In this document: piece by piece, positions 32,772-56,731 of the stretch
Position numbering within the stretch: position 1 is the stretch's first letter
How the letters are laid out: each line of letters begins with the position of its first letter
Assembly (NCBI GenBank): GCA_038065695.1
Contig: JBBTQN010000020.1
Location: 1-56,731, forward strand
Length of the DNA: 56,731 nucleotides
Source: Patescibacteria group bacterium
GTDB taxonomy: Bacteria > Patescibacteriota > Patescibacteriia > 2-01-FULL-39-33
Direction: 5' to 3'
Position numbers and translations under genes: made by a program
The notes under the pieces: model-generated
The model's database searches: none
Seen by the model: only the letters and a program-made list of their open reading frames with translations
What the model was told of the DNA's origin: nothing

Positions 32772-35700
32772 ATGGATAAGTCAAATCTTATCATCAACAA
32801 GGAAAAAGAAATTCAAAAATTTTGGGAAGAGAATAAAATTTTTGAAAAGACGCTTGAGGCCACCAAAAGCGGCAAAGCTTTTAGTTTTTACGATGGTCCG
32901 CCATTCGCGACCGGCACGCCTCACTATGGACATTTGGTCGCGAGTATCATGAAAGATGTCGTCCCGAGGTACCAGACGATGAAAGGACGCTATGTAGAGC
33001 GCCGCTGGGGCTGGGATTGCCACGGACTCCCGATAGAAAATATCGTAGAAAAAGAATTAGGATTTAAAAGCAAGAAGGATATTGAGGATTTTGGCGTGGA
33101 AAAATTCAACGCCCAGTGCCGATCAAAAGTTTTGATTTATGTGGAAGAATGGAAAAAAACCATTCATCGCTTGGGGCGCTTCGTGGACATGGAAAATGAT
33201 TACAAAACGATGGATTTGGATTTTATGGAAAGCGTTTGGTGGGTGTTTAAACAGCTTTGGGATAAGGGTTTGATTTATGAAGGATACAAATCCATGCACA
33301 TCTGTCCGCGTTGCGAGACGACTTTATCGCAATCAGAGGTGAGTGAGGGCTACCGCGACATCAAGGATTTATCTCTCACGGCAAAATTTGAGCTCGTGGA
33401 CGAGCCCGGCACTTTTATCCTAGCTTGGACGACCACGCCTTGGACGCTTCCCGGCAATGTGGCCTTGGCGGTGGGAGAGAAAATTGATTATGTGATGATT
33501 AAAAAAAAGAATTTGGAAAAAGGCGAAGAAAAAGAAAATTTTATTTTAGCCAAGGAAAAATTTTCCGTTTTACAAGATGATTATGAAATTATAAAGGAAT
33601 TTAAGGGCGAAGAATTGATTGGCAAAAAATACCAGCCGCTTTTTCCATACTATAAAGATAAAGATTTAAAAAATAAAGAAAATTTATATTTGGTGGTCAG
33701 CGCGGATTTCGTGACGACCGAAGACGGCACGGGCGTGGTCCACATCGCGCCGGCTTATGGCGAGGAAGATTTGATGCTGGGCAAAAAAAAAGATTTGGCC
33801 TTCATCCAAAATGTCACTTTAAGCGGTCATTTCACCAATGAAGTGGAGGATTTCAAAGGCCTCCACGTGAAGCCGGCCGGACACACCAAAGAAACCGACA
33901 AAAAAATCATCAAATATTTGAAAGATAATGATTTGCTTTTTGACGAACAGGAATACGAACACAGTTATCCGCATTGCTGGCGGTGCGACACGCCGCTCAT
34001 TAATTACGCGACTTCGTCTTGGTTTGTGAACGTGACGAAAATAAAAGATAAAGCGATAAAATTCGCCAAAGATATTAATTGGTCGCCGGCGCATATCAAA
34101 GAGGGCCGTTTCGGCAAATGGCTGGAGGGCAGCCGCGACTGGTCCATCTCCCGCCAGAGATTTTGGGCTTCAGTCATCCCGATTTGGCGCTGCGAGTGCG
34201 GCGAGAAAAAAGTCATCGGCTCCATTGCCGAATTGGAAAAAGAAAAAATAACCAAAAATAATTTTTTTCTCATCCGCCACGCCGAGTCGGAAAAGAACAT
34301 CCTTGGCATTTTTGATGGCAAGAAAGACAGCGCGTATTCCTTGACGGAGAAGGGCCGAAAACAAGCGGAAGAAGCGGCTAAAAAACTGAAAAAATTAAAG
34401 ATTGATTTGATTATTTCCTCCGAACTCCGGCGCGCCAAAGAAACGGCGGAGATTATCGCGGGAGAATTGGGTTTGGAAGCGCAGTTTGATCCTCGCTTAA
34501 ACGAAGTGTATTTGGGAAAGCGGGAAGGAAAGCCGTATTTAGACGAAGACGGAAAAAGTTTCACCCAAAAATGGAAAATGGAATATGATAAAAGGCTGGA
34601 AGAGGGTGAGAGTGTAAAAGATGTGGAAGAAAGAATGTTGTCCGCTTGGCAAGAACTGGATGAGAAATACGCCGGCAAAAACATTTTATTAGTTTCGCAC
34701 GGTGACACTTTGCGCGCTTTAAAAGGCGTTTTATTAGGACTAAAAAACGGCGAGATTTTCAGCCGCGAGAAAGTATTGGATTTTTGTGAAATTGAAGAAT
34801 TAAAAGAAAAAGTTTTTGACCTTCACAAAGATTTCATTGATAAGATTGAAATTAAATGTCCGAAGTGCGGCCAGTCAATGAAAAGAATCCCCGATGTGAT
34901 TGATTGTTGGTTTGAATCCGGCTCAATGCCTTACGCCCAGCTTCATTATCCGTTTGAGAATAAAGAAAAATTCGAGCATAATTTCCCCGCCGAGTTCATC
35001 GCCGAAGGCGTGGACCAGACGCGGGCTTGGTTTTACTATCTCCATCTCATCGCGACGGCGATAAAAAATAGCCGCGCTTTTGCCAATGTGATCGCCAACG
35101 GCATTGTTCTGGCCGAAGACGGCAGGAAGATGGCGAAAAAACTGAAAAATTATCCGGAGCCGGATTTGGTGATGGAAAAATATGGCGCCGACGCTTTGCG
35201 GTATTATCTTTTATCTTCGCCGGTGATGGCCGCGGAAAATCTTAATTTCTCCGAGTCGGGCGTCAAAGAAGCGTTTCAGAATGTGGTGATGCTCATGGGT
35301 AATATTTTGAAGTTTTATAAGATGTACGAAGATAAATTACAAATTCAAAATTACAAATTACAAATAAATTTAAAATTCAAAATTCAAAATTCAAAATTTA
35401 ATGTTGATAATGTTTTAGACCTTTGGCTTGTCGCCAAGCTGAATTCGCTCATCAAAGAAACGACCAAAGCGATGGAGGCCTATGATTTGCCGCGGGCGAC
35501 CAGGCCGATTGCCGGATTTATCAATGAATTTTCCACTTGGTGGCTTCGCCGCAGCCGCGACCGATTTAAAAACGAGGGCGCGGATAAAGATAATGCCTTG
35601 GCCGTTTTCCGCTACGCGCTTCTCTCGCTTTCAAAAGTGATGGCGCCGTTTATGCCATTTATCGCCGAGCATGTTTATCGTGAAATTGACGGAGAGCTTG

Positions 35701-36248
35701 AATCTGTCCATTTGGAATCGTGGCCCAAAGCGGAAAAGATAGATGAAGATGTTTTAAAACAGATGGAAGAAGTGAGAAAAATCGTGGAGCTGGGACTGGC
35801 CAAGCGCGCCGAGGCGGGGATCAAGATCCGACAGCCACTCGCTACGCTCAAAATTCCAAATTCAAAATTCCAAATTCCAAATAACCAGGAAGAATTTATT
35901 TCTCTTATTAAAGATGAGCTCAACATTAAGGAGATTATCTTCTCTAAAGAAATTGAAGAAATTGAATTAGATTTGAATTTAACCGAAGAATTGAAGGTGG
36001 AAGGCGTGCTTCGCGAATTGGCGCGCTCCATCAACGATTTAAGGAAGAAGCAGGGGTTGACCGTGGGCGATAAAGTGAAAATCCATTGGCACAGCGACGG
36101 CGAACTGATTAAAAAAGTTTTTGCCGACCAGAAATTAGTTGAAGAGTTAAAACGCGCGACTATCGCCGAGGAATTTACCCAACAAAAAAACGATGGCAAG
36201 GAGATCGGGGTGAATGGCGAGAAAATAATTTTATTATTGACAAAATAG
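32772..36248 (+). CDS. ileS: Isoleucine--tRNA ligase (type 2) with an inserted histidine-phosphatase domain and low-complexity inserts
   Basis: HYGH, KMAKKL (KMSKS), WSISRQRFW, WRCECGEKK and CPKCGQSMKR zinc knuckles. The insert carries RHAESEKN ... SSELRRAKETA ... LVSHGDTLRAL. Confidence 0.95.
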   Translation: MDKSNLIINKEKEIQKFWEENKIFEKTLEATKSGKAFSFYDGPPFATGTPHYGHLVASIMKDVVPRYQTMKGRYVERRWGWDCHGLPIENIVEKELGFKSKKDIEDFGVEKFNAQCRSKVLIYVEEWKKTIHRLGRFVDMENDYKTMDLDFMESVWWVFKQLWDKGLIYEGYKSMHICPRCETTLSQSEVSEGYRDIKDLSLTAKFELVDEPGTFILAWTTTPWTLPGNVALAVGEKIDYVMIKKKNLEKGEEKENFILAKEKFSVLQDDYEIIKEFKGEELIGKKYQPLFPYYKDKDLKNKENLYLVVSADFVTTEDGTGVVHIAPAYGEEDLMLGKKKDLAFIQNVTLSGHFTNEVEDFKGLHVKPAGHTKETDKKIIKYLKDNDLLFDEQEYEHSYPHCWRCDTPLINYATSSWFVNVTKIKDKAIKFAKDINWSPAHIKEGRFGKWLEGSRDWSISRQRFWASVIPIWRCECGEKKVIGSIAELEKEKITKNNFFLIRHAESEKNILGIFDGKKDSAYSLTEKGRKQAEEAAKKLKKLKIDLIISSELRRAKETAEIIAGELGLEAQFDPRLNEVYLGKREGKPYLDEDGKSFTQKWKMEYDKRLEEGESVKDVEERMLSAWQELDEKYAGKNILLVSHGDTLRALKGVLLGLKNGEIFSREKVLDFCEIEELKEKVFDLHKDFIDKIEIKCPKCGQSMKRIPDVIDCWFESGSMPYAQLHYPFENKEKFEHNFPAEFIAEGVDQTRAWFYYLHLIATAIKNSRAFANVIANGIVLAEDGRKMAKKLKNYPEPDLVMEKYGADALRYYLLSSPVMAAENLNFSESGVKEAFQNVVMLMGNILKFYKMYEDKLQIQNYKLQINLKFKIQNSKFNVDNVLDLWLVAKLNSLIKETTKAMEAYDLPRATRPIAGFINEFSTWWLRRSRDRFKNEGADKDNALAVFRYALLSLSKVMAPFMPFIAEHVYREIDGELESVHLESWPKAEKIDEDVLKQMEEVRKIVELGLAKRAEAGIKIRQPLATLKIPNSKFQIPNNQEEFISLIKDELNIKEIIFSKEIEEIELDLNLTEELKVEGVLRELARSINDLRKKQGLTVGDKVKIHWHSDGELIKKVFADQKLVEELKRATIAEEFTQQKNDGKEIGVNGEKIILLLTK

Positions 36249-36478
36249 TTAAGATGTGCTATAATTGTAAGTTGAATAAAAAATCCTTTTTTTCGTCATT
36301 GCGAGCCCTGCAAAGCAGAGCGTGGCAATCCCTATTTTTAAAGATACTATAAATGAGCCGAGCGTTTTGGAAGTCAAATTGGCTTTTAAAACGTTCGTCT
36401 CATTTGGAGAGACGAAAACCTTCATCTCCGGGTTGAAAAAGGAGATATGTTCGTTTCAGAAAAGGAAAGGAAACGTCC

Positions 36479-37243
36479 ATGAGTAAGAAAAGTGGAAATG
36501 TCCTGTTGAGTCCGGAGCAGAAGTTGGAGTTGGGTCTGGCGATGACTAAGGCGATACCTTGGGATATGTCCCCGGAATTGGCTCAGAAGTGTATTGGCAG
36601 TCGCTTTCTCAAAAGCGGCGTGCGGCAATTACTGATGCCATCAGAACCGGAAAGATCGATGGCAGTACTGGATGCCGACAGTGTCGTCGGTCAATTCGCC
36701 GAGGAGTGGGAGCGGCTCTACCGCGACAAGTTCGGCCTAACCGCTGACTTCTCGCAAGTTCGGGTGCCGGTTGTGCCCACAAATTTCAGCGGGTTCAACT
36801 GGCTGATGTTTGTAGCCAAGGGATTGACTCCCAACGCCGTGTACGCGGTTTGCGAGTCAATGTTTCCTTGCTACCGATACATATCGGATTTGGACGCGGC
36901 GGTGAAGGGCAGGAACGACCGCGAGCCGATCGAGCATTATGCCGTCTGGCTTCGCGACCGCGCGGAACCTGACGAAGAACTAAAAAAACTCTCGGCCAAT
37001 CAACTGGCGGCCTATGGCGTAGCAGGCAACACCTTATTGGAGGCGTTGCTTCTGGAGCCGTGGTATTTCTCCCGTTCCAAGGGCCAGCACCTCAATGTGG
37101 CCAATTGGAATTTGTGTAGTGGTTCGCGTTGCTCTGATGGCAGGGTCCCGCACGTCGGCTGGCGCGACGGCAAGTTTCGGGTTTATTGTTGCAGCTCTGA
37201 CGGTGCCAACGGCAATTTGCGGGCTCGCCTCGCAGTTTCCTAA
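36479..37243 (+). CDS. DGR target (variable) protein
   Basis: No signal peptide. The C-terminal 41 codons constitute the VR (SGSRCSDGRVPHVGWRDGKFRVYCCSSDGANGNLRARLAVS). Confidence 0.8.
   Translation: MSKKSGNVLLSPEQKLELGLAMTKAIPWDMSPELAQKCIGSRFLKSGVRQLLMPSEPERSMAVLDADSVVGQFAEEWERLYRDKFGLTADFSQVRVPVVPTNFSGFNWLMFVAKGLTPNAVYAVCESMFPCYRYISDLDAAVKGRNDREPIEHYAVWLRDRAEPDEELKKLSANQLAAYGVAGNTLLEALLLEPWYFSRSKGQHLNVANWNLCSGSRCSDGRVPHVGWRDGKFRVYCCSSDGANGNLRARLAVS
37118..37240 (+). repeat. DGR variable repeat (VR)
   Basis: 123 bp, colinear with the TR. My alignment gives 18 mismatches, 17 of them opposite TR adenines. Confidence 0.85.
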
Positions 37244-37525
37244 CCCTTCGTTCCCTTTTTAACTTTAACCCTAAACCACAGTGCTGTGTTGATTTTTCAA
37301 TATGGCACTTTTCTTTTATAATAAAATAAGGTTAATATAATCAGTCCTGCCCTTCGCGAAGGGTAGGACAATGGTTTACCTTTAAATTTAGGAAACTGCT
37401 TATCCAATTCTGGCGGACAGCTATTTTTTAAAATAGTCAGTCCCAAACAGAGCCGGCTAAGAGCCGGAAAACCCAGGCGATTTTATATAAAATTGCCGGT
37501 GCGAATGATGGAATTGGATGATATA

Positions 37526-37648
37526 AGTGGTTCGCGTTACTCTGATGGCAATGTCCCGAACGTCAACTGGAACGACGACAAGTTTCAGGTTAATTGTAAC
37601 AACTCTGACAATGCCAACGACAATTTGCGGGCTCGCCTCGAAGTTTCC
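37526..37648 (+). repeat. DGR template repeat (TR)
   Basis: Adenine-rich (AAC/AAT codons) at exactly the positions that vary in the VR. The 3' GC-rich segment gcgggctcgcctcg is shared with the VR. Confidence 0.85.
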
Positions 37649-37661
37649 GGCAGAGAAAGTC

Positions 37662-38018
37662 CTATTTCGGACTTTCTTTTGCTATCCAATTGAGCCAATC
37701 AGTATTCATTTTGGAAATTTCAATCAGCCGGCCCTCAAGGCCAAGATAATTTTTTCCATTTATAATATTTGATTCATTGGCTAGCCGTACTAATTGTTTT
37801 AGCACCTCAATTTTTATGCGCAAAATTTTTAAATGATCTGACTTTTCGTTTTTCGGCAAATAGGCGGCAGTGATTGATAGCTCCAGCGATTCCAGACACA
37901 TATTTTCTATCTTTAAGCCAAGACTGAAACGATCCCTCTTGTTTATTTGCTTATTATTTTGATAAATTAGTTTATAAAAATCAGTTATCTTATGAATCAG
38001 AGGAATATTATTAGACAT
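37662..38018 (-). CDS. Four-helix-bundle protein, Avd-like DGR accessory candidate
   Basis: 118 aa, helical, resembling the S23-ribosomal/four-helix-bundle family. It lies between the TR and RT but on the opposite strand. Its 5' end overlaps the RT start by 27 nt. Confidence 0.65.
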   Translation of the reverse strand: MSNNIPLIHKITDFYKLIYQNNKQINKRDRFSLGLKIENMCLESLELSITAAYLPKNEKSDHLKILRIKIEVLKQLVRLANESNIINGKNYLGLEGRLIEISKMNTDWLNWIAKESPK

Positions 38019-38830
38019 AATTTTAAAGATATTATTTCTTTAGAAAACTTATTTTTATGTTGGAAAGAATTTAGAAAAGGCAAAAGGGAAAAGTTGGATG
38101 TCCAAGAATTTGAATTCAATTTAGAGGATGATATTTTTCAGCTTCATTTTGAGTTATCCAACCAATCCTATCACCACGGCCTTTATCACACCTTTAATAT
38201 CTGTGATCCCAAGCCCAGAAAGATTTCCAAGGCATCAGTCAGGGACAGATTAGTTCATCACCTTATCTCCAATGAACTTTATCATATTTTTGAGCCAAGT
38301 TTTATTTACCACTCATATTCATCTCGTAAGGATAAAGGCACCCATCTGGCAGTTCTGAATTTAGAGAAGGCCCTAAGAAAAGTCAGCCGAAATTATCGCC
38401 AATCAGCTTTTGTCCTCAAGTGCGACATTAAGAAGTTTTTTGCCAGCGTGCCTCACCAGAAACTATTTGAGATAATAAAAAGAAAAATCAAGGATGAAAA
38501 ATTCCTTTGGCTGATTGAGGAAATTATAGAGAGTTTCGCTTAAAAATCCATCCTGATAAAATTATCATTATAAAATTCAGGCAAGGCGTTGATTTTCTGG
38601 GTTATGTCGTCTTGCCGCGTTATAAAACACTGCGGACGAAGACCAAAAGGAGAATGTTTAAAAAATTGTTTGTCAAGAGCAAGTCGGTAAAAAATGGAGA
38701 ACTAAATGAAGAGCGATTCAGGCAAACAATCCAATCGTATTTAGGTTTGTTAAAACATTGTCGAGGATATAAAATTCAGGAAAAGATAAGAGAATTGGTA
38801 GTCATTGAAAAAAAACCGATAAAAGATTAA
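37992..38830 (+). pseudogene. DGR-type reverse transcriptase with an internal deletion and frameshift (catalytic core missing)
   Basis: The N-terminal part has DGR-RT-like motifs (NLFLCWKEFRKGKREK, ICDPKPRKISKASVRDRLVHH, YSSRKDKGTHLA, VLKCDIKKFFASV) and stops at 38543. The -1 frame continues with LKIHPDKIIIIKFRQGVDFLGYVV... No xGxxxSQ or YxDD segment occurs in any frame. Confidence 0.7.
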
Positions 38831-41143: not shown

Positions 41144-42484
41144 ATGATAAAAAATATCATCAAAAAATTCATCCCCCAATCGGTTTTGGGTTTTTACCAT
41201 AAGTCGTTGGCAATCGCGGCGAATGTTTTATTTGGCCGGCCGTCGGAAAAAATAATCGTCATCGGTGTTACCGGCACCAACGGCAAATCCACGACGGTGT
41301 CGCTTATCGCCAAGATTTTGGCCGAGGCGGGACACCAAGTTGGCGCGACTTCCACCGTGATTTTTAAAGTGGGCGAGCACGAATGGCTCAATGATAAAAA
41401 AATGACGATGCTCGGCCGATTCGCCTTGCAAAAATTATTAAAGCAAATGATTGACGCCGGTTGCCAGTATGCCGTGATTGAAACTTCATCCGAAGGCATC
41501 AAACAATTTCGTCACTTAGGCATCCACTATGATGTTTGCGTCTTTACCAATTTAACGCCGGAGCATTTGGAAGCGCATGGCGGGTTTGCCAATTATAAAA
41601 AAGCGAAATTGAAATTATTTGAGAAGCTGGAGAAACAAAAAAACAAGAAATCAAAAAATCAAAAAATCAAAAAAACTATTGTCGTTAATGGCGATGATAA
41701 ATATGTGAGCGAGTTCTTAAACTTTAAAGTAGATGAGAAAATTATTTTTGGATTGAATAATAATAACCAGTTACCGGTTACCAGTTACCAGTTACTGATC
41801 GCCAAAGATATTGAATTTAAAAAAACAGGAATTTTTTTTGTTGTTGAAAATATTAATTTTGATTTAAAATTATTTGGCAAGTTCAATGTGTATAACGCGT
41901 TGGCCGCTATCGCGGTGGCAAAATCGCAAGGCGTCAGTTTGGAAGTTTGTAAATCGGCTTTGGAAAAAGTGAGCGGGGTGCCGGGCCGAATGGAGTTTAT
42001 AGATGCCGGACAATCTTTCAAAATCTTAGTTGATTACGCGCCGGAGCCGGAAAGTTTGAGGCAACTTTACCAAGCAATTGCGGACCATCAACTTTCGGCA
42101 GGAGGGAAAATAATTCATGTCCTAGGCTCTTGTGGGGGCGGTAGGGATATTTCCAGAAGGCCTGTTTTAGGCCAGATTTCAGCCCAGAAGGCCGATATAG
42201 CCATAATCACCAATGAAGACCCATATGACGATGATCCGGCCATTATTATTGACCAGGTGGCTTCAGGGGCACTATCAGGAGGCATGGTTTTAGGACAAAA
42301 TCTGTTTAAAATTTTAGACCGGCGCGAGGCCATCCGGAAAGCGATCAGCTTGGCCAAGCCGGGCGATTTGGTGCTTCTCACCGGCAAAGGCGCGGAACAG
42401 GCGATTTGCGTGGCCGATGGAAAAAAGATTCCGTGGGATGAGAGGGGAGTGGTGAGAGAAATATTGAAAATTTCTAATTTCTAA
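41144..42484 (+). CDS. murE: Mur ligase, MurE-like (UDP-MurNAc-tripeptide synthetase)
   Basis: P-loop GVTGTNGKSTT, FNVYNALAA, and C-terminal ITNEDPYDDDP at the position of the DNPR motif. It contains in-frame oligomer-array inserts. Confidence 0.85.
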   Translation: MIKNIIKKFIPQSVLGFYHKSLAIAANVLFGRPSEKIIVIGVTGTNGKSTTVSLIAKILAEAGHQVGATSTVIFKVGEHEWLNDKKMTMLGRFALQKLLKQMIDAGCQYAVIETSSEGIKQFRHLGIHYDVCVFTNLTPEHLEAHGGFANYKKAKLKLFEKLEKQKNKKSKNQKIKKTIVVNGDDKYVSEFLNFKVDEKIIFGLNNNNQLPVTSYQLLIAKDIEFKKTGIFFVVENINFDLKLFGKFNVYNALAAIAVAKSQGVSLEVCKSALEKVSGVPGRMEFIDAGQSFKILVDYAPEPESLRQLYQAIADHQLSAGGKIIHVLGSCGGGRDISRRPVLGQISAQKADIAIITNEDPYDDDPAIIIDQVASGALSGGMVLGQNLFKILDRREAIRKAISLAKPGDLVLLTGKGAEQAICVADGKKIPWDERGVVREILKISNF

Positions 42485-55287: not shown

Positions 55288-56731
55288 ATGAAGAAATTTT
55301 TATTTATATCAATAATTCTGATCGCTTTCGTGGTCTTTGGCCATTTCGTTTTCGCCGACACCCAATCCGGCAGTGTGGATGTGACGGCGACCGTGCCGTC
55401 CTCGGTTGCTTGCGGCAATGGCGTAATTGAGGGCAGCGAGGCCTGCGATAACGGGGCCAGTAATGGCGTGTGTTCAGCGACCTGTTCTTCAAGTTGTACG
55501 GTAAATAGTTGTGGCGGCGGCGGTCCGCCTCCTCCGCCTCCGCCGCCACCTCCCTGCGAAGGCGATGATTGCCCTCCTCCGCCTCCTCCGCCTCCGCCGC
55601 CACCTCCCTGCGAAGGCGATGATTGTTTTCCGCCGCCCCAACCGCCATGCGAAGGAGAAGATTGTCCGCCTCCTCCCCCACCCCCACCCCCTCCTTGCGA
55701 AGGCGAGAGTTGCATTCCGCCGCCGATTCTCCCTCCGCCGCCGCCCGGCTACAGCCCCACCCAACAATACCCCGTTTATTATTTTTATGTGAGTGGCGGC
55801 CTCCAAATTTTTCCCGTCCAGAATTCGCTTTATATTTTGAGCGGCTATGATTTGACGATCAGGACCATCAAAAGCTTATTGCCCAAACCGGCTTCTTTAA
55901 TTGCCGCCACTTTTAATCAGGAAAATTATTTTTTGGTTTTAAATGAAAGCCAGGATTTTTATCAGGCAAAAATAAAAATGCCGACGAATCCAGGCAGTTT
56001 TATTTTGGTTATTAAAACCAATTATGAAGATGATTCCTCGGTCGTTCAAAATTGGCAAGTGGTGGTCAGCCCTTGGGGGCAGGTATATTATCAGACGCCG
56101 AAAGGCGAAGAAGAGTCATTGCCGCAAGCGACCGTTTCCATTTATAAAGACGGCGTTTTGGTGGGCGAATATGAAATCAATAATCCGCAAGAAACGGATC
56201 AGGCGGGTCAATACGGCTTTATGGCGCCGAACGGCCGCTACACTTTGAAAATAAACAAAAAAAATTATTGGCCGTACAGCCGGGAAATCAGCGTGGAAAA
56301 TAATCTCGTCAATTATCGGATCACTTTGACGGAAATGCCGAAGGTCGTCCAGAATATTCAAAAATTGATTCAAAACCCGCTCACCCAAAAAGCAAATCGA
56401 TATACTTCTCCGGCTGTTGCCACCGCCATCACCATCAACGCGGCCTTTGCCATTCCTTGGTGGAATTTTATCCAATATCTCACCTATCTATTCACCGAGC
56501 CATTCGCCTTCCTCTTCCGCCGGCGCCGGAAAAATTGGGGTACGGTCTATAACTCCATCACCAAGGCGCCGATTGATTTGGCGGTGGTGCGGCTCTATCA
56601 GGCCGACAGCAAGAAACTTTTGCGTTCCCGCGTTACCGATAAAAACGGGCGATACAGTTTCTTAGTCAATGAAGGCCGGTATTATTTGGAAGTGGTCAAG
56701 CCGAAATTTGATTTTCCTTCCGAGATTTTAA
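55288..56731 (+). CDS. Large secreted protein with a Cys-rich repeat, four polyproline-CEGxxC repeats and carboxypeptidase-regulatory-like beta domains; the 3' end runs off the window
   Basis: Open frame not in the ORF track because it has no stop in-window. Translation: MKKFLFISIILIAFVVFGHFVFA..CGNGVIEGSEACDNG..PPPPPPPPPPCEGDDC (x4 variants)..GRYTLKINKKNYW..DKNGRYSFLVNEGRYYLEV. Confidence 0.8.
   Translation, partial: MKKFLFISIILIAFVVFGHFVFADTQSGSVDVTATVPSSVACGNGVIEGSEACDNGASNGVCSATCSSSCTVNSCGGGGPPPPPPPPPPCEGDDCPPPPPPPPPPPPCEGDDCFPPPQPPCEGEDCPPPPPPPPPPCEGESCIPPPILPPPPPGYSPTQQYPVYYFYVSGGLQIFPVQNSLYILSGYDLTIRTIKSLLPKPASLIAATFNQENYFLVLNESQDFYQAKIKMPTNPGSFILVIKTNYEDDSSVVQNWQVVVSPWGQVYYQTPKGEEESLPQATVSIYKDGVLVGEYEINNPQETDQAGQYGFMAPNGRYTLKINKKNYWPYSREISVENNLVNYRITLTEMPKVVQNIQKLIQNPLTQKANRYTSPAVATAITINAAFAIPWWNFIQYLTYLFTEPFAFLFRRRRKNWGTVYNSITKAPIDLAVVRLYQADSKKLLRSRVTDKNGRYSFLVNEGRYYLEVVKPKFDFPSEIL
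55511..55746 (+). repeat. GC-rich coding tandem repeat (polyPro-CEGDDC units)
   Basis: ccgcctcc/gccgccacctccctgcgaaggcgatgattg recurs with variations. Its antisense frames yield the spurious poly-Gly and poly-Arg ORFs in the track. Confidence 0.85.

What the first reader, a model, noticed from the sequence alone, without database searches (positions are those of the whole stretch)
36479..38830. Diversity-generating retroelement with a textbook adenine-mutagenesis footprint but a gutted reverse transcriptase and an antisense, overlapping Avd-like gene
VR (37118..37240, the last 41 codons of the target gene) and TR (37526..37648) are colinear 123-mers. In my base-by-base alignment they differ at 18 positions, 17 of which are adenines in the TR (for example AAC to GGC, CGC or TGC). 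The single exception is a T next to a mutated A. The shared GC-rich 3' segment gcgggctcgcctcg is unmutated apart from one A just 3' of it. This is the signature of DGR mutagenic homing. The adjacent RT gene keeps its N-terminal motifs but terminates at 38543 and resumes in the -1 frame at the thumb-like HPDKIIIIKFRQGVDFLGYVV. The segment that should hold the xGxxxSQ and YxDD catalytic motifs is missing from all frames. The cassette has therefore diversified in the past but looks inactive now, unless an RT is supplied in trans. The four-helix-bundle Avd candidate is on the opposite strand, begins 27 nt inside the RT 5' end, and ends 14 nt after the TR, so TR read-through would be antisense to it. 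The target protein has no signal peptide and belongs to no family I recognise beyond the C-terminal variable scaffold.
Basis: partly seen in the sequence, partly recalled or inferred. Interest (0 to 1): 0.8.

Follow-up and report, generated by a model that had tools for sequence, protein, structure and literature searches.

The report
DGR cassette with dead reverse transcriptase
This is an ordinary targeted-hypermutation cassette (a diversity-generating retroelement) of an ultra-small groundwater bacterium, and a roughly 247-base deletion has recently destroyed its reverse transcriptase; the real surprise lies in its relatives, whose reverse transcriptase genes carry a hypervariable simple repeat at the same spot, which looks like an on/off switch.

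Summary
VR (37118-37240) and TR (37526-37648) are colinear 123-mers with 18 mismatches. Seventeen are at TR adenines, all at codon positions 1 or 2 (P about 3e-11). The RT gene matches an intact relative up to 38540 and again from 38531 in the -1 frame. About 82 codons are absent from the whole window: the linker, PIGNxTSQ, YADD and part of the next motif. Independent assemblies, including two run-level contigs, reproduce the junction exactly, so it is not an assembly error. The lesion looks recent. Both RT pieces are still open, Avd and TR are intact, and 90 of 91 non-A TR positions equal VR.

The "odd" features are ordinary. Head-to-head antisense Avd occurs in all 142 loci of this RT clade where Avd was detected; this is the published CPR architecture TR-(avd)-RT. 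The target belongs to a large unannotated Patescibacteria family.

Verdict: a new, degenerate member of a known kind, of modest interest in itself.

A side finding is unexpected. In the nearest relatives, the linker where this deletion starts holds (AG)n, (CT)n or poly-G tracts. Their lengths differ between near-isogenic populations and put the RT in all three frames about equally. This suggests phase-variable DGR activity, for which I found no published report.

The parts
36237..36265 (+). Promoter-like site (TTGACA-17-TATAAT, 12 of 12 matches, with a TG extension) about 215 nt upstream of the target gene
   Evidence: This is a consensus match only; function is inferred.
36479..37243 (+). DGR target gene, 254 aa. 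It belongs to a large unannotated Patescibacteria family that ends in ...LRxRxVVS.
   Evidence: ORF. No Pfam, NCBIfam or PHROG hit. 2020 representatives in the profile search. AlphaFold model with pLDDT 91.5 and no significant structural neighbour.
37118..37240 (+). Variable repeat (VR), the last 41 codons of the target
   Evidence: 18 mismatches to TR, 17 of them at TR adenines.
37219..37232 (+). A-free GC-rich segment GCGGGCTCGCCTCG at the 3' end of VR (IMH-like). The identical copy in TR is at 37627-37640.
   Evidence: The IMH role is inferred by analogy with Bordetella phage BPP-1.
37280..37309 (+). 13-bp hairpin followed by a T-run, 40 nt downstream of VR. It could be a terminator or the post-VR hairpin.
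   Evidence: It lies within a strongly structured spacer (z = -6.2).
37344..37369 (+). GC-rich palindrome/hairpin in the VR-TR spacer
   Evidence: (I7).
37526..37648 (+). Template repeat (TR), with 32 adenines
37662..38018 (-). avd accessory gene, 118 aa, intact, head-to-head with the RT (27-nt overlap of the 5' ends)
   Evidence: Pfam bAvd 9.3e-14, NCBIfam NF033474 1.5e-14, PHROG 3206 6e-18. The same layout occurs in 142 of 142 loci.
37992..38543 (+). RT N-terminal remnant, 183 aa (fingers through the motif holding the first catalytic Asp, KCDIKKFF). It stops at a TAA created at the junction.
   Evidence: RVT_1 positions 8-96 of 205. 73% identity to residues 3-146 of the intact relative P0115.
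38531..38540 (+). Deletion junction. The 10 nt GAGTTTCGCT are claimed by both flanking alignments (..S-F-A in the N frame, E-F-R.. in the C frame), so up to 7-10 nt of microhomology is possible. About 247 nt (82 codons) are missing.
   Evidence: The junction is reproduced in independent assemblies.
38531..38830 (+). RT C-terminal remnant in the -1 frame (LKIHPDK...GVDFLGYVV..., end of palm plus thumb). It is still an open frame of 103 codons.
   Evidence: The other two frames of the same stretch carry 9-10 stops.

Best explanation
This is a chromosomal diversity-generating retroelement of a Patescibacteria (CPR) bacterium, lying between ileS and ruvA. It has the standard CPR layout: target gene with a C-terminal VR, then a structured spacer, then TR, then avd on the opposite strand, then RT.

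When it was active it worked like other DGRs, by analogy with Bordetella phage BPP-1 (inferred). TR and its downstream flank are transcribed. The RT-Avd complex reverse-transcribes this RNA and misincorporates opposite template adenines. The cDNA then replaces VR, guided by the A-free GC-rich 3' end. The result rewrites about 13 codons of a ligand-binding surface.

What is shown: that history is written in the VR/TR mismatch pattern. What is also shown: a single out-of-frame deletion of about 247 nt has since removed the RT linker, the PIGNxTSQ motif, the YADD catalytic motif and part of the next motif. The deletion may have arisen between short GAGTTTC(GCT) direct repeats. The cis-encoded RT therefore cannot polymerise.

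The deletion is fixed in the sampled population and is evolutionarily recent (inferred from integrity). Both RT remnants remain open and conserved. Avd and TR are intact. VR and TR still agree at 90 of 91 non-adenine positions. The present VR allele is therefore frozen unless a second, compatible RT-Avd acts in trans.
For: The A-specific footprint has P about 3e-11 and falls only at codon positions 1 and 2. Avd is identified by three libraries. The RT N and C pieces flank a gap of about 75-82 profile positions or residues in three independent profile or pairwise comparisons, and the missing piece is absent from the whole window. The closest solved structure to the intact relative P0115 is the 328-aa reverse transcriptase of 8ub7 (7e-38), against 1e-17 for group II and retron RTs. 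The same cassette order with A-biased VR/TR pairs occurs in 117 of 161 loci of this RT clade (the window's own locus included), and antisense Avd occurs in 142 of 142. The published description of this architecture and clade is in PMC5758913 and PMC8144416. The junction sequence is identical in the ENA SPAdes contig and in two Logan single-run contigs, and the truncated 183-aa ORF is on record on 4 contigs. The exact 254-aa target is on at least 10 contigs, and its 90%-identity cluster has no other member, so no VR variant is recorded. The C-terminal remnant is open for 103 codons where the other frames carry 9-10 stops.
Against: No reads could be mapped, so minority VR variants or a minority intact RT allele cannot be excluded. 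Only 56.7 kb of the genome was visible, so a second DGR RT elsewhere is possible. Invariance of consensus VR across assemblies is weak evidence, because one related target cluster also shows almost none. The mechanistic steps are inferred from the Bordetella paradigm and not tested here: priming, the IMH role, and the hairpin role. The C-type-lectin fold expected of most DGR targets could not be demonstrated.
Confidence: 0.85

Rival explanations
1. The cassette is still active because a second DGR reverse transcriptase (with or without its Avd), encoded elsewhere in the same genome, uses this TR in trans.
For: avd and TR are fully intact although the RT is broken. Patescibacteria genomes often carry several DGRs. 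One chromosome yields two loci (L032 and L045), and L009, L027 and L070 show a second RT within a few kb. A related DGR, L084, has an RT N-part 74% identical and shares exact 20-26-mers. It co-occurs in the same groundwater well, and apart from a repeat-tract frameshift its RT is intact.
Against: There is no second RT in the 56.7-kb window. L084 lies in a different gene context, there is no evidence that it belongs to the same genome, and its Avd is only 32% identical to this one. No VR variant of this target is recorded on at least 10 contigs. The intactness of avd and TR is explained equally well by a recent deletion.
Confidence: 0.1
2. The deletion is an assembly or sequencing artefact and the real gene is intact.
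For: Four Logan contigs all end at 38474, 60 nt before the junction, which at first looks like a graph problem at this site.
Against: That break is explained by a 23-mer (38452-38474) shared with the co-occurring RT of L084. Two Logan contigs from different runs start at 38452 and read through the junction with 0 mismatches to the SPAdes contig. The truncated ORF is recorded on 4 contigs, including NCBI and ENA assemblies. A shared stretch of 10 nt is far below assembler k-mer sizes.
Confidence: 0.03
3. The truncated 183-aa product is a selected, functional protein rather than debris, for example an RNA-binding or Avd-binding regulator.
For: The 183-aa ORF is intact and 73% identical to the N-part of an intact relative. 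Many relatives are also annotated as proteins of about 190-200 aa.
Against: In the relatives, those short products come from repeat-tract frameshifts or contig ends, and full downstream RT coding sequence follows them. Here the downstream remnant is also conserved, which points to recency and not to selection for a short form. No independent lineage shares this deletion.
Confidence: 0.02

Closest known systems
Patescibacteria (CPR) DGRs: architecture B3 'TR-(avd)-RT' of Wu et al. 2018 (PMC5758913), and DGR clade 2 of Roux et al. 2021 (PMC8144416)
   Same: Same gene order and orientation. Antisense avd directly upstream of the RT. A small target with a C-terminal VR and no signal peptide or known domain. 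An occasional non-A substitution. A chromosomal location among housekeeping genes.
   Different: The RT has lost its catalytic core to an internal deletion of about 247 nt, so this copy cannot act by itself.
Bordetella phage BPP-1 DGR (mtd-avd-TR-brt), the mechanistic paradigm
   Same: A-to-N footprint confined to codon positions 1 and 2, and AAC-rich TR codons. VR at the 3' end of the target. An A-free GC-rich block at the VR/TR 3' end. A hairpin downstream of VR. An Avd four-helix-bundle partner. The RT lineage, since the best solved homologue of the intact relative is the 8ub7 reverse transcriptase.
   Different: avd is on the opposite strand and downstream of TR. The cassette is cellular, not phage-borne. 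A C-type-lectin fold for the target is only hinted at. The RT is inactivated.
Simple-sequence-repeat contingency loci (phase-variable genes of Neisseria, Haemophilus and Campylobacter; phase-variable mod methyltransferases)
   Same: This applies to the relatives, not to the window. They have an intragenic (AG)n, (CT)n or poly-G tract whose unit number differs between near-isogenic populations and sets the reading frame. Every OFF allele is one unit away from an ON allele.
   Different: The switched gene is a mutagenic reverse transcriptase and not a surface or modification gene, and the hosts are environmental CPR bacteria. The window's copy has lost the tract together with the catalytic core, so it is irreversibly OFF.

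Membership tests
Diversity-generating retroelement (DGR) | A TR/VR repeat pair whose mismatches fall almost only at TR adenines | tested here: met
   17 of 18 mismatches are at A, with 32 A in 123 nt; P = 3e-11.
Diversity-generating retroelement (DGR) | VR lies inside a protein-coding target gene (typically at its 3' end), and the variable adenines sit at codon positions 1 and 2 | tested here: met
   VR is the last 41 codons of ORF 36479-37243. Mutated A: 6 at position 1, 11 at position 2, 0 at position 3.
Diversity-generating retroelement (DGR) | An adjacent, intact DGR-clade reverse transcriptase with the [IL]GxxxSQ and YxDD motifs | tested here: not met
   The gene is of the DGR RT lineage: hundreds of homologues next to VR/TR pairs, and the intact relative P0115 is closest to the 8ub7 RT. 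But the segment carrying PIGNxTSQ and YADD is deleted and is absent from the window. It is therefore a DGR by descent, not a self-sufficient one.
Diversity-generating retroelement (DGR) | An Avd-type accessory protein | tested here: met
   Pfam bAvd 52.3 bits (cut-off 40) and PHROG 'Avd protein of DGR' 6e-18. NCBIfam NF033474 scores 54 bits, below its 80-bit cut-off.
Diversity-generating retroelement (DGR) | An IMH-like conserved GC-rich 3' end of VR/TR and a hairpin downstream of VR | tested here: inconclusive
   A 14-nt A-free block is identical in both copies. A 13-bp hairpin lies 40 nt after VR in a spacer with folding z = -6.2. Function was not tested, and the hairpin could simply be the target gene's terminator.
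Diversity-generating retroelement (DGR) | VR is displayed on a C-type-lectin (or Ig-like) fold | tested here: inconclusive
   The model is of high confidence (pLDDT 91.5), but no Foldseek hit reaches E <= 0.001. The best non-significant hits include the FGE paralogue 1y4j, rhodocetin, the MCL C-type lectin and a viral C-type lectin. The profile search against PDB sequences gave nothing.
Diversity-generating retroelement (DGR) | Ongoing VR diversification in the population | not testable with these tools
   Reads cannot be mapped here. Indirectly, the exact target sequence is on at least 10 contigs and no variant exists in its 90% cluster.
CPR DGR architecture B3, TR-(avd)-RT (Wu et al. 2018) | TR is upstream of an avd gene on the reverse strand, followed by the RT; the host is Patescibacteria | tested here: met
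   The same layout occurs in 142 of 142 related loci. The records of related loci and proteins are named Patescibacteria or CPR lineages. The definition is in PMC5758913.
SSR-mediated phase-variable (contingency) gene | An intragenic simple-sequence repeat whose unit number varies between closely related populations and shifts the reading frame | tested here: not met
   Not met in the window, because the tract region is deleted. Met in the relatives. The linker holds (AG)4-16 (also in interrupted longer tracts), (CT)14-21 or G8-11. The frames are 10:15:11 among SSR-bearing lineages against 11:1 without an SSR (Fisher P = 1.4e-4). Near-isogenic pairs differ only by repeat units (L143/L145, L111/L114). 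Reversibility and the effect on expression were not tested.

The most novel reading that the evidence does not exclude
In the subclade of Patescibacteria DGRs to which this element belongs, mutagenic retrohoming is gated by a hypermutable simple-sequence repeat inside the RT gene, in the linker just before the PIGNxTSQ motif. The repeat is (AG)n, (CT)n or poly-G. Slipped-strand changes switch the RT between in-frame and out-of-frame states, and RNA-level slippage may leak a little full-length RT. The result is a 'mutator of a mutator', a contingency switch. The window's element would be the irreversible end-point of that logic: a deletion that starts at the edge of this unstable linker has locked the RT off and frozen one VR allele.
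Probability: 0.5. Interest if true: 0.7.

Novelty: new member of a known kind. Interest (0 to 1): 0.4.

Why it matters
By itself the locus matters little. It is one more CPR DGR, useful mainly as a clean, datable example of how such cassettes die: a single microhomology-sized deletion, with the rest still pristine. It also shows that a DGR call based on VR/TR plus an RVT_1 hit can hide a dead enzyme.

The comparative result it led to matters more. DGRs are costly mutators, and how cells restrain them is largely unknown. A conserved position in the RT gene is occupied in different lineages by different repeat types, which looks convergent. The tract length is polymorphic between near-isogenic populations, and it coexists with VRs that differ between the same populations. 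If confirmed, this would be a simple heritable ON/OFF (or throttling) control of targeted hypermutation. It is directly testable with existing metagenomic reads and with cloned RT alleles. It would also mean that many 'partial' or 'frameshifted' CPR RT annotations are functional states and not pseudogenes.

Tried and rejected
(1) Rfam at gathering thresholds and a tRNA scan of the whole window found nothing.

(2) A search for extra VRs matching the TR with A treated as N, on both strands, found none.

(3) P0001, the 149-aa variant of the truncated RT, could not be looked up by exact sequence.

(4) I first suspected that the shared end of four Logan contigs at 38474 signalled heterogeneity at the deletion. 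I rejected this. The 23-mer 38452-38474 is shared with another RT (L084) from the same well, and two Logan contigs read cleanly through the junction.

(5) I considered a fixed programmed ribosomal frameshift to explain the short RT ORFs in the relatives, and rejected it. All three frames occur in about equal numbers, and near-identical loci differ by whole repeat units.

(6) The proportion of truncated proteins in the protein search (106 of 111) overstates the effect. Some of these end at contig ends inside the repeat, and the tool may favour short proteins. I rely on the DNA-level counts instead.

(7) I tried VR variation within 90% clusters of related targets as a positive control for 'active' DGRs. 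The result was mixed: one cluster showed a clearly different VR (P0140) and another almost none. The window's invariance is therefore only weak evidence.

(8) The first AlphaFold run, with 11 sequences, was poor (pLDDT 66). The second, with 113 sequences, was good (pLDDT 91.5). Foldseek against PDB and BFVD and a profile search against PDB sequences gave no significant match.

(9) Pfam scans of ten further target-family members found no domain.

(10) Literature searches that combined DGR or reverse transcriptase with frameshift, phase variation, simple sequence repeat or slipped-strand found no report of repeat-switched DGR RTs. The primary CPR DGR paper (Paul et al. 2017) is not held in the library and could not be checked.
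Full report
1. THE OBSERVATION

VR (37118-37240) and TR (37526-37648) are exact-register, gap-free 123-mers.
- They differ at 18 positions. Seventeen are adenines in TR. The exception is the T at 37552, next to a mutated A.
- TR has 32 A in 123 nt, so the hypergeometric probability of at least 17 of 18 mismatches at A is 3e-11.
- Every mutated adenine is at codon position 1 (6 cases) or 2 (11 cases) of the target frame. Five of six AAC codons are changed.
- The A-free block GCGGGCTCGCCTCG is identical in both copies, and the base after it is the last mismatch.
- VR is the last 41 codons of the 254-aa ORF 36479-37243.
- No other copy compatible with the TR exists in the window.

This is the canonical DGR footprint.

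2. THE RT LESION

- The ORF 37992-38543 matches RVT_1 profile positions 8-96 of 205. It matches group-II RT/maturase profile positions 21-164, and the -1 frame downstream matches positions 238-290.
- The PHROG RT profile gives 100-271 and 347-439.
- Against the intact 318-aa relative P0115, tblastn aligns residues 3-146 (73% identity, ending at 38540) and 226-312 (54% identity, starting at 38531 in the other frame). Residues 147-225 align nowhere in the 56.7 kb. In P0115 those residues are the linker SPVDKNAERERERELK, the motif GLPIGNVTSQ, YFRYADDF and the following helix.
- The two alignments overlap on the 10 nt GAGTTTCGCT. These read ..S-F-A in the upstream frame (P0115 also has SFA) and E-F-R.. 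in the downstream frame (DNA alignment). This fits a microhomology-mediated deletion of about 247 nt. Because 247 is not a multiple of three, a TAA stop arises at the junction.

3. IS THE DELETION REAL?

- The window is identical to ENA ERZ1292638 NODE_105, a 76-kb contig.
- The truncated ORF is on record on 4 contigs, and the exact target protein on at least 10.
- Four Logan single-run contigs all stop at 38474, which looked suspicious. But two Logan contigs from different runs start at 38452 and cross the junction with no mismatch.
- The 23-mer 38452-38474 is shared with the RT of another DGR (L084) from the same groundwater well. That shared 23-mer explains the graph break.

I therefore treat the deletion as real and as the majority allele.

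4. HOW OLD IS IT?

- The C-terminal remnant is open for 103 codons, whereas the other two frames of the same stretch carry 9-10 stops. It is still 54% identical to P0115.
- The N-terminal remnant has no lesion.
- Avd matches its profiles end to end.
- VR and TR agree at 90 of 91 non-adenine positions.

The element was therefore active until recently, and the deletion is its only visible defect. This is an inference from integrity; no clock was applied.

5. CONTEXT: THE 'ODD' FEATURES ARE THE CLADE'S NORM

I collected 160 related loci: 80 from GTDB species genomes and 80 from metagenomes. The metagenome set was ranked on the RT N-part only.
- In all 142 loci where Avd could be detected, the window's own locus included, it lies on the opposite strand directly upstream of the RT. 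It typically abuts or overlaps the RT start.
- 117 of 161 loci (the window's own locus L001 included) have an A-biased VR/TR pair, with VR 400-550 nt upstream of TR.
- Wu et al. 2018 define this layout as architecture B3, TR-(avd)-RT, found in 90% of their CPR set (PMC5758913).
- Roux et al. 2021 describe a Patescibacteria-restricted DGR clade whose targets lack transmembrane or known domains (PMC8144416).
- They also note that non-A substitutions are common in CPR DGRs, which covers the single T-to-G mismatch.

The flanking genes are housekeeping genes: ileS upstream, then ruvA, an L,D-transpeptidase-like gene and a Mur ligase downstream. The cassette is therefore chromosomal.

6. THE TARGET

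- The 254-aa protein has no Pfam, NCBIfam or PHROG match.
- It is not an orphan. A profile of 11 homologues finds 2020 50%-identity representatives (775 at E <= 1e-30). Nearly all are 190-310 aa and match through to their C-terminal ...LRxRxVVS.
- Family members sit beside other DGRs of this clade, for example L024, L034, L074 and L146.
- Ten members scanned against Pfam gave nothing.
- With a 113-sequence alignment, AlphaFold gives a confident α/β model (pLDDT 91.5, pTM 0.80).
- Foldseek finds no significant neighbour in PDB or BFVD. The best non-significant hits include an FGE paralogue, rhodocetin and C-type lectins. That is a hint of a divergent C-type-lectin-like fold and no more.

7. IS IT STILL DIVERSIFYING?

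- The exact target sequence recurs on at least 10 contigs, and its 90% cluster has a single member. No VR variant is on record.
- As a control, one related target cluster contains a member with a clearly rewritten VR (P0140), but another shows almost no variation.
- The invariance fits a dead RT but does not prove it.
- No second RT lies in the window.
- Trans-complementation stays possible because multi-DGR genomes exist in this group.

8. AN UNEXPECTED FINDING IN THE RELATIVES

Almost all of the 120 best protein matches to the RT N-part are only 180-220 aa long. They end just after ...SFxSPVDNFPQRERER or after a GGG run. Some tails, such as RNPHRQSNLTNFCQHISE, are out-of-frame translations of GIPIGNLTSQIFANIYLNE.

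At the DNA level, the linker between ..SF and GLPIGN in the nearest relatives holds a simple-sequence repeat: (AG)4-16, also in interrupted longer tracts, (CT)14-21 or G8-11.
- Among distinct SSR-bearing lineages, the linker length puts the downstream RT in frames 0, +1 and +2 in a ratio of 10:15:11. This is indistinguishable from uniform (chi-square P = 0.56).
- Linkers without an SSR are in frame in 11 of 12 cases (Fisher P = 1.4e-4).
- All 79 GTDB loci are in frame, but the way that set was selected favours intact genes.

Near-isogenic loci from sister samples differ essentially only at this tract and at VR.
- L143 vs L145: one SNP plus one AG unit in 5 kb.
- L111 vs L114: only (CT)2 in 2.9 kb.
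- L125 vs L127/L129/L131 vs L132: linkers of 75, 73 and 71 nt.
- L137-L141: identical TRs but five different VRs, and 15 of the 17-19 differences fall in VR. The consensus RT is out of frame in all five.

Every OFF allele is one unit away from an ON allele. Three different repeat chemistries occupy the same loop, which is an insertion relative to the solved 8ub7 RT. That argues for selection for mutability and not for accident.

A fixed programmed frameshift does not fit, because all three frames occur. Transcriptional slippage could add leaky expression.

I found no report of this in the held literature. The primary CPR DGR paper was not available.

The window's deletion begins at the 5' edge of this linker, right after SFA. 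A causal link to tract instability is speculation.

9. VERDICT

The element is a recently inactivated member of the well-described CPR DGR class. The antisense Avd and the 'familyless' target are typical of that class.

Novelty of the locus: new member of a known kind.

Interest of the locus itself: modest. It is raised somewhat by the repeat-switch lead it uncovered in its relatives.

Noticed in passing
Related loci L082-L145, e.g. L084:4034-4135, L143:4061-4131, L111:1579-1654; absent from the window (the deleted region would lie at 38540): The RT linker just upstream of the PIGNxTSQ motif carries (AG)n, (CT)n or poly-G tracts. Their length varies between near-isogenic populations and puts the RT in all three frames (10:15:11). 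This looks like a candidate phase-variation switch of DGR activity, and I found no report of it in the literature searched.
   Followed up: yes
Linkers of related loci, about 8 nt after the ..SF codons (e.g. L084, L089, L093, L143): The 9-mer TGTGGATAA, the complement of the DnaA-box consensus TTATCCACA, sits just upstream of the repeat tract. It is exact in 13 of 56 distinct linkers, and one-mismatch forms occur in 12 more. These sites account for most of the 19 occurrences in 375 kb of these loci. It may simply encode the conserved P-V-D-N/K. Unexplained.
   Followed up: partly
window 38452-38474: Four independent Logan run-level contigs end at 38474 and two start at 38452. The 23-mer between them is identical to part of the RT of L084, a different DGR (next to groES/groEL) from the same Hainich H43 well. 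This is a k-mer collision between co-occurring DGRs, not heterogeneity at the deletion.
   Followed up: yes
window 37241-37525: The VR-TR spacer folds far better than shuffles (MFE -90.7 kcal/mol, z = -6.2). It contains a 13-bp hairpin plus T-run 40 nt after VR, a GC-rich palindrome at 37344-37369 and a promoter-like site at 37294-37322. Conservation across relatives was not examined.
   Followed up: partly
window 32772-36248 (ileS), repeats at 35334-35413 and 35851-35898: The 1158-aa isoleucyl-tRNA synthetase carries an inserted histidine-phosphatase (His_Phos_1) domain, according to the precomputed Pfam list. It also carries in-frame A/T-rich heptamer arrays (AAATTCA and AAATTCC) that encode KFQIQN-like low-complexity stretches. 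A similar array lies in the Mur ligase gene at 41633-41676.
   Followed up: no
L082:1331-1491, L083:1339-1499; window 36288-36335: In L082 and L083 the RT linker, besides (AG)8, holds an insert of about 90 nt with hairpin potential (…GAAGCAATC…GATTGCTTC…CTCGCAATGAC). The window has a related GTCATTGCGAG-type element in the leader of the target gene. Small hairpin repeats appear to move into and around these cassettes.
   Followed up: no
L084 (ERZ1292640 contig, same aquifer well): The RT N-part of L084 is 74% identical to the window's, with exact shared 20-26-mers, but its Avd is only 32% identical and its target is unrelated. This suggests modular exchange between the RT and the avd/TR/target parts of co-occurring DGRs.
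   Followed up: partly
window 55525-55670: A GC-rich tandem array (54-nt period, about 2 copies, plus a 39-nt period) encodes Pro/Gly-rich repeats on one strand. It is unrelated to the DGR.
   Followed up: no
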